Of a stretch of DNA of 64,000 bases, positions 38,102 through 58,600 are shown one piece after another. Made by a program: the position numbers. How positions within the stretch are numbered: the first letter of the stretch is position 1; every line of letters starts with the position of its first letter. Location: assembly GCA_965153285.1 (NCBI GenBank), contig OZ229110.1; one strand, 5' to 3'. The stretch comes from Podarcis tiliguerta. Taxonomy: Eukaryota.

Positions 38102-41100
38102 TAAACTGCTCAGGTATAGTATTCTTGGTAATAATCAACTTAAAGAGGCTTGAAAGCAACCATCATTTACAATCAAATTCATGAGAGTATAGAGTAGGTA
38201 TGAGGAACCAGTGCCCCTCCAGGTGTTGTAGATTCAACAGTATTCAGCCCCAGCTGGCATGACCAATAGTTAGAGATGGTGGGAATTATAGTCCAACAGC
38301 ACTAGAGTGCCATAAATGTTGTAGATCAGTGGTTAGTTAAATACTGTGGACCCATTGTTTTTTTAATAATTAAGCCATGAGCCCCCTACTTTTGAAAATT
38401 TTCATAGAATCGTAGAGTTGAAAGGGACTCTATACAGTAATACCTCCGTGAACGTCTGCCTCGTCTAGCATACATTCCGGCGAATGTCTGCAGCAAACCT
38501 GGAAGTGCCGGAATGGGTTACTTCCAGGTTTGCCACTCACGCTAAATCATGCTTTGCGCAGACACAGTACTTTGCCCTGTGTCCTTTTCGGCTAGCGGCC
38601 GGGGCTCCAGAATGGATCCCGGTTGCAAAACAAGGTACGACTGTAGTAGTTTTTGTTATGTGAATGGTGCCAGGCACCGATTTAGCACATCCATGGCCTC
38701 AGCTGCTGCTGCTGAAGAGTAGAGCTGCATCATAACAACAGCAGGCTACAAAACTCTTGAGTGACCACACCACCATTTCAAGTAGAGGTTAAGTGGAGAA
38801 TTGATAGGACTGGCCCGCTGTGGAAGCACATAGTAAGAGAATCCATGGGGGTAAACCAGGGGTCGGCAAGGTTTACCTCACCTGGGCTGGTTCACTCCAG
38901 GGAGATCCCTCCATGGGCCGGATTGTGTGTGTGCCTGCGATTTCCAGTGTTTGCTTCTGCACAGATGCAATTTCTGGTATCTGCGTAGATACATCGCATG
39001 CGTAGATACATCGCATGCGCAGATGCGATTTCTGGTGGCGCGGAAACAAGTCCTGGTGCCGGTTTAGTGCAGTGCGCGGGGACTCGCTGAGTGGGCAGCT
39101 TGGTTTGGGGGCGGCTCGTGGGCCGGTTAATGACCCCTGTGGGCCGCTTGTGGCCCATGGGCTTTAGCTTGCCCACCCCTGGGCTAAACAGTTCTCCCAA
39201 TATGTGCTTGCTGTTTCAGAACATGTTGTGGCATTTCTTAATGTGTGGTCCTGAGTTTACATTTGCTCAGACCTGATTCTATGCAAATTCATGTGTGTAG
39301 GGTTAAAAACATGCATTATTATCACTTTTTTTATAAAAAAAAACCCAAACCCCCCACCATACTCTGTGTATTGTGTTTTTAAAGTGTTGAGTAGATGTTG
39401 AGATGCATTTTGATTGAAGTGGTATGGTATGGTATGGTATGGTATGGTAGATGCTCCCGTGGAAGTAAGTAGCTTTTGTGTTTTTCTTACAGACCAAAAT
39501 GAAGAGGAAAGCTGTGGGTATCTGGCACTGTGGCTCTTGTATGAAAACAGTAGCTGGTGGCGCCTGGACATACAAGTAAGGGAAATTATATTGGTTGAGG
39601 GGTATGCGCGCCTGGGGGGAATGTTGCATTTTCATCTGTGGTGGGTGCTGTGTGGCGTTTGGTATGCTGGTGGAAAGTAAATTAAGAAGAGCCCTGCTGA
39701 ATCAGACCAAGGGCCCATCTAGTCCAGGATTCTGCTTTTGCAGTGGTGTGGTTAACCTGAACCCTATGATACACTCAAACAGGACGTGTAGAAGTGCATT
39801 TATGCTCTTGACTCCCAGCAGCTGGTATTTAGAGGCATACTTCCTCTGACACAGGAGATAGTACATAACCGCAATGACTAGGTAGTCTTCTCTAATTCAT
39901 TTGTCTAATGCCCTTGAAAAACGGTTCATGGTTGTATATCAAACATTTTCTCTTCAACTTCACAGTGATCAGTGTTTGGGAGTGAAAGGGAAGGTAGAAG
40001 TTATTTAAATAGAGCAGGGATGTCCAGCTTACAAGAGACTGTGATCTACTCCCACTATAACAAAAACTGGTAGTGATCTATCCATTGGATTTTTTTTGGG
40101 GGGGGGGGTGGTGTCAGCAGCGATTTACCATGGACCCCTGCCATCGACCAGTAGATCGCCATTGACCTGTTGGGCTTCCCTGAAATAGAGTATTCTAACA
40201 ACATCTTCTCTAAAACCCTAACTACATGTGGCATTAACAATGTGATTATCAAACATGTACAATGGAACCTCTACCTGCGACCATAATCCGTTCTGGAGGT
40301 CGAAATGGGTCGCTGGGAGAGGCGCCATTGTGTGCAGGCATGGGCTTCAATTGCCCTTCTGCACATGTGCGAATGGTGGCAGACCCGCCGGTTACTTCTG
40401 GGTTTGCTGCGGACGCTGGGCAAAATGGATACAAGCGGAGGCGGATGTAAGAGGTTTGACTGTATGTGTTTAAAAAAATAATACTAGGTGCAAGGGGAGG
40501 GGGCAGTCTTCTCGGTTGCTACTTCTCGGTAGTGGCGCCTGCCCTGTGGAACACCCTCCCATCAGATGTCAAGGAAATAAACAACTACAAGTATCTGACT
40601 TTTAGAAGACATCTGAAGGCAGCCCTGTTTAGGGAAGTTTTTAATGTCTGATGTTTTATTGTATTTTTAATATTTTGTTGGAAGTCACTCAGAGTGGCTG
40701 GGGAAATCCAGCCAGATGGGCAGAGTATAAATAATATATTATTATTATCTAAAGTAAAGAAGAAAAACCCCAACATTTTGTATGCACTATTAAACATTTC
40801 ATTTAGCTGACACTTGTTAGTTCTAAAAAAAACGTTTAAAAGCTTATTACAGAAACTGCTAATGGTTTGTCTCATTTGAAATAATAGTGATACTTTTTGT
40901 TTTTTCCAGCACCACTTCAGCGGTGACAGTGAAATCTGCCATCAGAAGACTGAAGGAGTTAAAAGACCAGTAGAAGCATATTTTTGTTCCACTGTTGCTC
41001 TTCCTCTACAGTTCATGTCCTTATTGTCAATTAAAGGTGGTTGTGAACATTGAACCCTGTTGGGTATTTTGTGCAAGAACAGTCCTATAGGCAGTGTACC

Positions 41101-55600: not shown

Positions 55601-58600
55601 CAGAAGAGTTGGAAGGACCCAAGGAGCATCTAGTCCAACCCTCTGCAATGCAGGAATATGCAGCTGTCCCTTATGAGGCTCGAACCTTGGTATTATCAGC
55701 ACCACGCTCGAACCAACTGAGCTATCCTTGTGATCATACTATACAGTCTTGCTATTTGCCACAGAGTTCAGCTCTCTGAGATCTCTCAACTTTTATTTTC
55801 TTAACAACAGCGGTAACATGTTCCTGGCTCTTTGGGCTGTGGAAAAATAGGAACTGAATGGGAAAACAACTGATGAAATCAAAAGAGGCAGAGGGTGCTG
55901 TAAAGAGTTTCCAATAGTTAGGAAGCAAAGTTATGGCACTGTGTGTTACTCTTTACCCCTTTACCCCATGGCTAATGGTAGCCTCTGAAGAAATGCTGCA
56001 GAAAAAGAAAATCCACATAACATGTTCCTGCTCTGCATAGTGATGTACAGACAGCAGAATTCAGCTCCTCTTGGCTTGGATGTTAGGCTATAGTGTGGCC
56101 CAAAAATTGGGATATTTTTAGCACACAGTTTATATATACACATATCCCTGGCTATGCTGCTGGTGGTAATGTGACATTTTATATTGCCTCAGGTTGTAAT
56201 ATCCAGTCCGGGAGTGTGCACAAAATCAGTTCCTCCAGTTATCATGGAGGGCAAACATTACCATTTTGTATACGTCTTGATTCGCTGCTCTGCAAGCTAA
56301 TATGCATGTACTGTGAGAGACTAAGCTCTCCCACCACCCCGATGCTACCTTCTAATTCCCAGTGGCATTTGGTCATGTACTGTATATGGGATCCTCTTCA
56401 GCTACCATGGCTCTCTTAAGGTATCAACCATGTACAGAAAGTTGCTTCCCCAGCTGCAATGTTTAACACTACCTGGCATACATAATGAAATCATCCTACT
56501 GAGACACTCCATAATCCCGCCAATAGACCCCAGACCAGGAAACACATAGTATGATGGTTGGGATTCATTGCTGTTCAAGGTTTAAAATTTTACAGCCTAT
56601 ATAAAGAATGCAAACTTTCAGAACAATCCTAAGCATGCTTACTCAGACATGTCCAGTGGAGGTTACTCCTTAATACTCCAGCCATCTTCATATCAGTGGT
56701 AGATCTTGTTCTGGGCAAATAGCTGGGCAAGGAATCTTTCACAGATCAATTGCCACAGTTCTTTTCCCTGTTCTGTGTGGGTGGTTTTATTTAGCTTATC
56801 GACTCTACAGTATTCCATAAGTTATAATCAGAGCTATGTGTCTTATCTGATTGGGCCACCAGTACTCTGTCCTCCTCTTTTGATTTTCATGATTGCAAAG
56901 GCCACCAACAAGCTGACAGCATGCCAGGTCCCTAAATGCAGCCCGCAATTGCTTTGAAGAGACTCTGAAAACCAATTTTAACACTCCGGTCCACCAGTTT
57001 CTGTCCAAGAAAGCATCCTGAGTACCTTTCAGCCGCTCGGACTCTGCCTGGAACCCGTCAGGGAACAGTGAAGCCAACTAGACCAGCGTGAGTGTGGCAA
57101 TTAAAAGCACAGAGCAGGAGAATGGAAAACCCCAGGAAAAGCAGTAGCAGCAGCAGCAACAGCACCAAGACTGCTCTGGAGGCATCAAAGCAATGCTGCT
57201 CTGGGAGCCTCCAAGAGTTGTGGCTATAAGACCAAAAGCTTATGTGGCATCAGTTCCACCCGACAAGTGGGGGAAGAGGATCCAAAGCTAAATTAGAAAA
57301 GCTATTGATAGGAATTATCCCTGCACTCTGGTTGATGATGCGAGCTGTAATCCTGAATGACAACTGTGTGGCAAAGTCCTCCTCCTGGGCCCTGCCAAAA
57401 TCCATCAATCTCATGAAGAGGTATCTCGTGTTCTGTTTGTTTGGCTCTATTTTCCTCCTCGCTGTGCTGTCTCATCTCTTCCCATGGCCTGGCCCCGATG
57501 TAACCTTCAGTACTGTTTATGACGGGAGAGGTGAGTAGAATTCAGTCTCACACAATGAACGTTATTCATTTGACAACCAGAAACTCTGTGGCTCAACCTC
57601 TCAACCTCTGGGTACTCACTCAGGGTTCAAAGAAACTCTCAGCTCGCCCACAAAAGTCTCACAATGAGAAGAGTTTCTGGAAACAGCGGACACCACCCTA
57701 GTTTCTCACTCTAGACTTCCTTTTTATGGACAGGCTCAAAGTGGCTGGTACTTTCTCAGTTAGCCCAACAGCTGTGTCCTATTCAGCTACACTCCCCACA
57801 CCCAGTTCCAGCAGGTTTGTTGAGTTTCCTAGGGGGTCCAGACGATGGGAGAAGCTCCCACTCCTCTACTCACAGCACGTTCTTCACTCTCTGCAAGTCT
57901 CCTCCAGCTACTAATGGAGACTAGGGGCAGCTAGAGAAAAAGCTCATCATGTGATCATCTTCTAACTACATATAGTCCCCAACCCAAAGAATAACAACAT
58001 GTTGCACCCTTTCCAGGGACTTGAAGACCATCTCCCGCACCCGTTGTTTACCTCACTCACCCTGACTGATGGCGAGTGGAGGTGGTGCTTGGTAGGCTTG
58101 CCCAGCTGTTTCTGCTGCTCATTCACCTTCTCACGGATGACGGCGAACTCCTTGCCATTTTTAGGGGGCTTTATCCGTCCACTGCCACTCACCACACTGG
58201 AGGCGGCATCCACCACATTCTCTGCAATAGATACTTCAGTATGTTCCTCATCTACACAGACAAAAAAAGAAATGGAGGGTGGGAGAAGAAAGAAAAGGGG
58301 CATCAGCAAGGCTTCTTTCCAGCCGAAACTCAGTTCCAGCACCTCTCAGGTGGGCGCCAATGCCATTATAAGAGAACAAGGGAGCTGTTCATGGTGAGTT
58401 CCGGCACCTCTTTTTCTAGAAAAATTAGCACTGGTGTATTAGTTATGTTAGCCGCAGAACCCAAATGCTCTGCCCAGAGATCCCCACAATGGAACAAATG
58501 GGGGAAATCCCCACAGGCCCACAGTGAGAAGAAGAAGAAGAGTTTGGATTTGTAATCCCGCCTTTCACTCCCCTTAAGGAGTCTCAAAGCGGCTAACAAT

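What the first reader, a model, noticed from the sequence alone, without database searches (positions are those of the whole stretch)
40974..58251. IGFBP2 is inverted relative to the human order: tail-to-tail with RPL37A, with no IGFBP5 at its 3' end
Seen: SMARCAL1 and RPL37A are on +, IGFBP2 is on -, their stops are only ~8.6 kb apart, there is no N gap between RPL37A exon 2 and IGFBP2, and no IGFBP5-like exon lies between. Known: in human 2q35 SMARCAL1, RPL37A and IGFBP2 are co-directional and IGFBP2 is tail-to-tail with IGFBP5, an ancient pairing mirrored by IGFBP1-IGFBP3. Inference: an inversion of IGFBP2 alone broke the pair. Inverting both genes would have put IGFBP5 next to RPL37A. One breakpoint would lie at about 41.3-46.9 kb, a stretch dense in DNA transposons, and the IGFBP2 promoter would have a new regulatory neighbourhood.
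Basis: partly seen in the sequence, partly recalled or inferred. Interest (0 to 1): 0.7.

Follow-up and report, generated by a model that had tools for sequence, protein, structure and literature searches.

The report
Lizard IGFBP2 gene flipped beside RPL37A
In this lacertid lizard sequence the growth-factor-binding gene IGFBP2 points the opposite way from its neighbour RPL37A and has lost its ancient tail-to-tail partner IGFBP5 from its 3' side, most likely through a small real inversion of ordinary kind.

Summary
SMARCAL1-like exons and RPL37A exons 2-4 lie on +. IGFBP2 exons 4, 3 and 2 lie on -. Exactly 8,585 gapless bases separate the two stop codons. The only N run (36398-36597) lies upstream of RPL37A exon 2. 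No other IGFBP-like exon exists anywhere in the 64 kb, by three tests. IGFBP2 exon 1 lies beyond 64 kb.

Exon 2 is 98% and 97% identical to IGFBP2 of Podarcis raffonei and P. muralis, so the window is lacertid.

New evidence came from the UniRef "IGFBP2" of P. muralis. It is a chimeric gene model: IGFBP5 exon 1 joined to IGFBP2 exons 2-4, switching exactly at the window's exon 2 acceptor. Such a model needs IGFBP5 exon 1 upstream of IGFBP2 on the same strand. That is what an inversion of IGFBP2 alone predicts (RPL37A-> <-IGFBP2 <-IGFBP5).

Papers read here show tail-to-tail pairing in human and in both zebrafish pairs, so the lizard state is derived.

Not testable here:
- the distal junction;
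- how far the inversion extends across reptiles;
- read-level support for the assembly.

"Dense in DNA transposons" is only partly borne out. "New regulatory neighbourhood" is unsupported. This is an ordinary micro-inversion of modest interest.

The parts
191..32386 (+). 3' part of a SMARCAL1-like gene (HARP, SNF2 and Helicase_C exons; last coding ORF 32192-32383)
   Evidence: ORF list. Pfam: HARP 1.6e-08, SNF2-rel_dom 1.2e-07, Helicase_C 5.8e-09. The name rests on domain composition only.
36398..36597 (.). The only N run in the window (200 N). It lies between the SMARCAL1 3' end and RPL37A exon 2. It was left unfilled.
37871..37999 (+). RPL37A exon 2
   Evidence: Pfam Ribosomal_L37ae, E 4.7e-22; AG acceptor and GT donor
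39493..39575 (+). RPL37A exon 3
40910..40973 (+). RPL37A exon 4 coding part with stop TAG at 40971-40973; ATTAAA signal at 41030
40974..49558 (.). Stretch of 8,585 bases between the two stop codons, with no N and no IGFBP-like exon. It must hold one inversion junction.
44264..44581 (+). Remnant of a hAT transposase C-terminal (dimerisation) region
   Evidence: Atlas feature search scored 0.98, with 26 of 30 hits in the hAT, FAM200A or ZBED5 set. Pfam gave no match.
46397..46882 (.). MITE-like element with 25-nt inverted ends; partial copies elsewhere in the window
   Evidence: Inverted repeat I1, 92% complementary. Copies at 1541-1795, 35795-35844 and 60798-60847.
47935..47940 (-). Only canonical poly(A) signal found downstream of the IGFBP2 stop, 1,621 nt from it
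49559..49726 (-). IGFBP2 exon 4 coding part (second half of the thyroglobulin-1 repeat, RGD motif, stop at 49561-49559)
   Evidence: 100% identical to P0001 and P0002
53075..53215 (-). IGFBP2 exon 3 (first half of the thyroglobulin-1 repeat; GC donor)
58061..58251 (-). IGFBP2 exon 2 (linker region)
   Evidence: 98% identical to P. raffonei IGFBP2 and 97% to the P. muralis model; splice sites
58252..64000 (-). Part of IGFBP2 intron 1; exon 1 lies beyond the window end
   Evidence: No match to residues 1-141 of P0001; no IGFBP N-domain motif

Best explanation
A real evolutionary micro-inversion occurred in an ancestor of lacertid lizards, at a depth not determined here. It flipped a segment holding IGFBP2 but not IGFBP5. 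The breakpoints lay just 3' of RPL37A and inside the short IGFBP2-IGFBP5 tail-to-tail spacer.

The resulting order is SMARCAL1-> RPL37A-> <-IGFBP2 <-IGFBP5. IGFBP2 is now convergent with RPL37A, and IGFBP5 lies upstream of IGFBP2 on the same strand.

Shown:
- the RPL37A/IGFBP2 junction in gapless sequence;
- the absence of IGFBP5 from the window;
- lacertid origin of the window.

Inferred:
- the position of IGFBP5, from a chimeric P. muralis gene model;
- the direction of change, from human and zebrafish outgroups in the literature;
- that the flipped segment took most of IGFBP2's upstream spacer with it.
For: - Convergent RPL37A exons 2-4 and IGFBP2 exons 4-2 lie 8,585 N-free bases apart.
- No IGFBP5-like exon occurs in the 64 kb, by three tests. 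The paralogue cross-hits on IGFBP2 exons 3 and 4 show that the tests were sensitive enough.
- The window is lacertid but matches neither reference protein exactly: 98% to P. raffonei and 97% to P. muralis in exon 2.
- P0002, the UniRef "IGFBP2" of P. muralis, is a chimera.
  - Residues 25-116 align almost letter for letter with human IGFBP5 chain 7ufg_D.
  - Residues 1-117 are 86-94% identical to gecko, Sceloporus, tuatara and turtle IGFBP5, and only 40-59% to lizard IGFBP2.
  - All named hits to that part, other than P0002 itself, are IGFBP5 or carry only generic names.
  - Residues 118-283 are the window's exons 2-4.
  - The switch falls exactly at the exon 2 acceptor, 58251.
- A one-strand gene model of this kind cannot be built on a tail-to-tail pair.
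- Tail-to-tail IGFBP2/IGFBP5 is reported in human and in both zebrafish pairs (PMC2593780, passages read). The same holds for IGFBP1/IGFBP3 (PMC2518108 and PMC5241279, passages read).
Against: - The distal junction, IGFBP2 exon 1 and IGFBP5 all lie outside the window and were not seen.
- P0002 is a gene model whose genome coordinates and evidence base I could not inspect. It could reflect an error in that assembly or a chimeric transcript.
- No second chimera was found among the 231 candidates.
I therefore could not confirm a full-length lacertid IGFBP5 or list the species in the IGFBP2 cluster.
- No reads, Hi-C data or other vertebrate genomes were available.
- The co-directional human order of RPL37A and IGFBP2 is recalled, not checked.
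Confidence: 0.65

Rival explanations
1. A more complex rearrangement, not a simple one-gene inversion. IGFBP2 was moved or flipped in several steps, and IGFBP5 is not its immediate upstream neighbour in this species.
For: The window shows only one junction, and IGFBP5 is nowhere within the 64 kb. P0002 shows only that IGFBP5 exon 1 is upstream on the same strand in P. muralis, not how far away.
Against: A single inversion explains both the window's junction and the P. muralis chimera with two breaks. A gene model spanning a very long distance is less likely than one between neighbours.
Confidence: 0.13
2. Assembly artefact: a chimeric or mis-oriented piece of contig puts IGFBP2 the wrong way round.
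For: The scaffold does carry a join 1.3 kb upstream of RPL37A exon 2 (the N run at 36398-36597). The intergenic stretch holds repeats.
Against: The convergent pair lies inside one N-free stretch. The repeats there are short, under 500 bp. A separate lacertid assembly yields a gene model that needs the same non-ancestral orientation of IGFBP2 relative to IGFBP5. Flipping the contig right of the gap would break the SMARCAL1->RPL37A adjacency without changing the RPL37A/IGFBP2 convergence.
Confidence: 0.07
3. Inverted duplicate: the window holds a second, flipped copy of IGFBP2, while the original still sits tail-to-tail with IGFBP5 elsewhere.
For: Exon 1 is not seen in the window, so completeness of this copy is unproven.
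Against: Exons 3 and 4 are 100% identical to the annotated Podarcis IGFBP2 proteins, and exon 2 is 97-98% identical. Splice sites and reading frames are intact. One search returned no second, divergent Podarcis IGFBP2. That search saw only 24 candidates, so this is weak evidence.
Confidence: 0.07
4. The lizard order is ancestral, and the tail-to-tail pair arose later in other lineages.
For: No sauropsid or amphibian gene order was checked here.
Against: Human and both zebrafish duplicates share tail-to-tail IGFBP2/IGFBP5, and the paralogous IGFBP1/IGFBP3 pair has the same layout. Independent origin several times over is far less parsimonious than one flip.
Confidence: 0.03

Closest known systems
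Conserved tail-to-tail IGFBP2-IGFBP5 gene pair of human 2q35 and zebrafish LG6 and LG9
   Same: The genes are the same: IGFBP2 with a four-exon layout, a thyroglobulin-1 repeat split over exons 3 and 4, and an RGD motif. RPL37A and a SMARCAL1-like gene lie nearby.
   Different: The 3' neighbour of IGFBP2 is RPL37A, not IGFBP5. In P. muralis, IGFBP5 appears to be upstream on the same strand.
Lineage-specific micro-inversions of one or a few genes, common in vertebrate genome evolution (general knowledge, recalled)
   Same: One gene is flipped between neighbours that keep their orientation, and transposon remnants lie near the junction.
   Different: Only one of the two junctions is visible. No inverted repeats flanking the segment could be sought, because the distal end lies outside the window.
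Read-through or chimeric gene models between same-strand neighbours in automatic annotation
   Same: P0002 joins exon 1 of one gene to exons 2-4 of the next at the canonical, phase-compatible exon borders.
   Different: It joins two paralogues, so the product keeps a complete IGFBP domain layout (PF00219 plus PF00086) and is easily mistaken for a real, fast-evolving IGFBP2.

Membership tests
IGFBP2 orthologue | C-terminal thyroglobulin type-1 repeat | tested here: met
   PF00086 halves in exon 3 (E 1.4e-05) and exon 4 (E 9.6e-07), both above the curated cut-off
IGFBP2 orthologue | Closer to IGFBP2 than to IGFBP1, 3, 4, 5 or 6 | tested here: met
   2h7t_A IGFBP2 at E 1.1e-26 and 3.8e-27; for exon 4, next best IGFBP1 at 4.5e-11 and IGFBP5 at 0.0029. 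Exon 2 is 98% identical to P. raffonei IGFBP2.
IGFBP2 orthologue | RGD motif in the C-domain (said to be in all known vertebrate IGFBP-2s, PMC2593780, passage read) | tested here: met
   VRGDPEC in exon 4
IGFBP2 orthologue | N-terminal IGFBP domain (exon 1) | tested here: inconclusive
   Not in the window: no match to residues 1-141 of P0001 and no N-domain motif. It is expected beyond 64 kb.
Ancestral tail-to-tail IGFBP2-IGFBP5 pair | IGFBP5 lies directly 3' of IGFBP2 on the opposite strand | tested here: not met
   RPL37A occupies that place 8,585 bases away. No IGFBP5 exon in 64 kb.
Single-gene inversion | Flanking genes keep their orientation while the gene between is flipped | tested here: inconclusive
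   The proximal side is shown: SMARCAL1-like and RPL37A on +, IGFBP2 on -. The distal side is inferred only from the P. muralis chimera P0002.
Single-gene inversion | Outgroups carry the unflipped state | tested here: met
   Human and two zebrafish pairs are tail-to-tail, from literature passages. No sauropsid outgroup was available.
Single-gene inversion | Both junctions confirmed by reads or independent assemblies | not testable with these tools
RPL37A | Ribosomal L37ae domain in intron-bearing exons ending in a stop | tested here: met
   PF01780 at E 4.7e-22 for exon 2. Exons 3 and 4 have canonical splice sites. Exon 1 was not located.
SMARCAL1 | HARP domain followed by SNF2 ATPase and Helicase_C | tested here: met
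   One search gave matches for 4 of 10 ORFs. The PDB search gave only generic SNF2 relatives. No orthologue search was made.

The most novel reading that the evidence does not exclude
Because the flip put IGFBP2 downstream of IGFBP5 on the same strand, lacertids may really splice IGFBP5 exon 1 to IGFBP2 exon 2. Both introns are in the same phase at the homologous position. The product would be a hybrid binding protein with the IGFBP5 IGF-binding N-domain and the IGFBP2 linker and RGD-bearing C-domain. On this reading the P. muralis model P0002 is a true transcript, not an annotation error.
Probability: 0.1. Interest if true: 0.6.

Novelty: new member of a known kind. Interest (0 to 1): 0.35.

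Why it matters
The IGFBP2/IGFBP5 and IGFBP1/IGFBP3 tail-to-tail pairs are conserved from fish to human. A lineage in which one pair is broken is a natural test of whether that layout is held by shared regulation or merely by inertia. IGFBP2 and IGFBP5 expression could be compared between lacertids and squamates with the ancestral order.

There is also a practical point. A public "IGFBP2" of P. muralis is an IGFBP5/IGFBP2 chimera. In studies of insulin/IGF network evolution in reptiles it would mimic very fast evolution of the IGFBP2 N-domain.

Otherwise this is an ordinary micro-inversion, visible in principle in any annotated lacertid assembly.

Tried and rejected
I sent stop-free ORFs instead. 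The 9 intergenic ORFs sent gave nothing except one sub-threshold match (Na_K-ATPase, E 0.095). The tenth ORF sent, 53933-54604, also gave no match.
- A PDB search for the SMARCAL1 helicase exon returned only generic SNF2 remodellers.
- Rfam found no family in the window. The tandem repeats found are trivial.
- Literature searches found nothing on IGFBP gene order in reptiles.
  - IGFBP2 + IGFBP5 + tail-to-tail gave 8 papers, none on reptiles.
  - Adding synteny and Anolis gave 0 papers.
  - IGFBP with synteny, reptiles and chicken gave 21 papers, none relevant by listing.
  - RPL37A + IGFBP2 + SMARCAL1 gave 5 papers. A chicken table lists the three genes on chromosome 7 with close Ensembl transcript identifiers but gives no orientation.
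  - The lizard, inversion and squamate search listed nothing relevant. PMC3463429, read in passages, was irrelevant.
- The key family paper that I recall (Ocampo Daza et al. 2011, Endocrinology) is not held, so it is cited from recall only.
The membership of the lacertid IGFBP2 and squamate IGFBP5 clusters therefore stayed unchecked.
- The junction search for further IGFBP5/IGFBP2 chimeras found none besides P0002.
- The skink model P0141 is a poor IGFBP2 model and says nothing about gene order.
No vertebrate locus could be fetched.
- Supplements of papers were closed and not seen.
- Complex prediction, structure prediction and the search of protein representatives were not used, because no claim here needs them.

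
Full report
**What is in the window**

The 64 kb holds one N run, 36398-36597. On the + strand, stop-to-stop ORFs carry HARP (191-748), SNF2 (6672-6941 and 18428-18661) and Helicase_C (25759-26241) matches. These came from 4 of the 10 ORFs sent. A last coding ORF ends at 32383. This is the domain set of SMARCAL1. I ran no further search on it, and the PDB search gave only generic SNF2 relatives.

RPL37A follows on +:
- exon 2 at 37871-37999 (Ribosomal_L37ae, E 4.7e-22);
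- exon 3 at 39493-39575;
- exon 4 at 40910-40973, with stop TAG at 40971-40973 and an ATTAAA at 41030.

Exon 1 was not found between the N run and exon 2. The N run was left as it is.

**IGFBP2 on the - strand**

- Exon 4 coding part: 49726-49559.
- Exon 3: 53215-53075.
- Exon 2: 58251-58061.

Each exon was searched on its own. I made and searched no joined spliced model.

Exons 3 and 4 each hold half of a thyroglobulin type-1 repeat. They match the human IGFBP2 C-domain chain 2h7t_A at E 3.8e-27 and 1.1e-26. For exon 4, IGFBP1 reaches 4.5e-11 and IGFBP5 reaches 0.0029. Exon 4 carries the RGD motif.

Exon 2 has no Pfam match. It is 98% identical to IGFBP2 of Podarcis raffonei (P0001) and 97% to the P. 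muralis entry (P0002). It is 73% identical to Salvator merianae and 78% to Rhineura floridana. The window is therefore lacertid and matches neither Podarcis protein exactly. Nothing in it was taken for human.

**Check of the observation**

Between the two stops lie 8,585 bases without an N. The finding's coordinates are exactly the base after the RPL37A stop and the exon 2 acceptor.

Three tests looked for another IGFBP exon in all 2,807 six-frame ORFs of 15 aa or more:
- phmmer with the window's own exon peptides gave only self hits, with the next best E at 0.47. A scan for the N-domain cysteine motif found none.
- tblastn with four named sauropsid IGFBP5 proteins (gecko, Sceloporus, tuatara, turtle) hit only IGFBP2 exons 3 and 4, at 26-47% identity. 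The next best E was 0.33.
- An HMM of 48 named IGFBP5 proteins gave the same two hits (E about 2e-04) and nothing else below E 1.

The cross-hits show that the tests would have seen an IGFBP5 exon. Residues 1-141 of P0001 (exon 1) have no match, so exon 1 lies beyond 64 kb.

**New evidence on where IGFBP5 is**

P0002, the UniRef "IGFBP2" of P. muralis, is a chimera.
- Residues 25-116 align almost letter for letter with human IGFBP5 chain 7ufg_D. Residues 178-282 align with the human IGFBP2 C-domain.
- Residues 1-117 are 86-94% identical to four sauropsid IGFBP5 proteins, and only 40-59% to three lizard IGFBP2 proteins.
- In one search, all named hits to this part other than P0002 itself are IGFBP5 or carry only generic names.
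- Residues 118-283 map to the window's exons 2-4.
- The switch (…REQAKN|DEEHTEV…) falls exactly at the exon 2 acceptor, 58251. The split codon works for both genes.

A gene model is laid on one strand of one sequence. In the P. muralis assembly, IGFBP5 exon 1 must therefore lie upstream of IGFBP2 exon 2 on the same strand. That is impossible for a tail-to-tail pair. It is what a flip of IGFBP2 alone predicts: RPL37A-> <-IGFBP2 <-IGFBP5.

The window gives one junction in one lacertid, and P0002 gives the other relation in a second one. A search across the chimera's junction found no second chimera among 231 candidates. I could not see the model's coordinates or its evidence base.

**Direction of change**

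Passages read in PMC2593780 state that IGFBP2 and IGFBP5 are tail-to-tail in human and in both zebrafish duplicate pairs. PMC2518108 and PMC5241279 say the same for IGFBP1 and IGFBP3. The lizard state is therefore derived.

That RPL37A and IGFBP2 are co-directional in human is recalled, not checked. A chicken table lists IGFBP2, RPL37A and SMARCAL1 on chromosome 7 with close Ensembl transcript identifiers but gives no strands.

**The stretch between the genes**

The poly(A) signals at 41030 (RPL37A) and 47940 (IGFBP2) leave about 6.9 kb. This stretch holds:
- a hAT transposase C-terminal remnant at 44264-44581 (Atlas 0.98; Pfam silent);
- a MITE-like element at 46397-46882 with 25-nt inverted ends, with partial copies elsewhere in the window;
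- a 70% identical direct repeat, 42919-43090 and 46124-46290.

"Dense in DNA transposons" is thus only partly borne out. So little DNA is left here that most of the former RPL37A-IGFBP2 spacer probably went with IGFBP2 and still lies upstream of its promoter. This is inference.

**Rivals**

- An assembly error is unlikely. The pair is inside one N-free stretch, the local repeats are under 500 bp, and a second assembly needs the same non-ancestral orientation.
- A more complex rearrangement, or an inverted duplicate, cannot be excluded without sequence beyond 64 kb.

**Novelty**

Nine literature searches found no description of IGFBP gene order in reptiles. The family paper that I recall is not held. 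Supplements were closed.

The arrangement should be visible in public lacertid annotations, which I could not consult. It is a new instance of a common kind of event. Its interest lies in breaking a pair conserved from fish to human, and in exposing a chimeric public protein entry.

**What stayed unchecked**

- The distal junction.
- The spread of the inversion across reptiles.
- Read-level support for the assembly.
- The cluster membership of lacertid IGFBP5 (switched off).

Noticed in passing
P0002 (UniRef entry named IGFBP2, Podarcis muralis); switch point corresponds to window 58251: A public protein entry is an IGFBP5-exon-1 / IGFBP2-exons-2-4 chimera. It keeps a full IGFBP domain layout and could mislead evolutionary-rate studies.
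   Followed up: yes
window 53075 (-), IGFBP2 exon 3 donor: Intron 3 uses a GC donor (CAG|GCAAGT). The Q|C exon junction is confirmed by the Podarcis proteins.
   Followed up: partly
window 58052-58061 (-), 3' end of IGFBP2 exon 2: Two donors lie 9 nt apart. P. raffonei isoform X1 (P0001) carries the extra three residues and P0002 does not.
   Followed up: partly
window 61863-62000 (-), inside IGFBP2 intron 1: This stretch matches the first 45 residues of a skink gene model (P0141, Lerista edwardsae) at 63% identity, E 1e-11. It may be a conserved intronic element or an alternative first exon.
   Followed up: no
window 53933-54604, IGFBP2 intron 2: About 650 nt is open on both strands (223 aa on +, 216 aa on -) and low in complexity. 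The 2-kb stretch from 54001 shows positive GC and AT skew on +. No Pfam match.
   Followed up: no
window 46397-46882; also 1541-1795, 35795-35844, 60798-60847: A MITE-like repeat family with 25-nt inverted ends is scattered through SMARCAL1 introns, the intergenic stretch and IGFBP2 intron 1.
   Followed up: partly
window 36598-37870: RPL37A exon 1 was not found between the N run and exon 2. It may lie in or left of the gap, which was not filled.
   Followed up: partly
window 7277-7426 (+) and 58366-58659 (-): Similar ORF-like translations appear in a SMARCAL1 intron and in IGFBP2 intron 1. This points to another interspersed repeat family. It was seen by eye.
   Followed up: no
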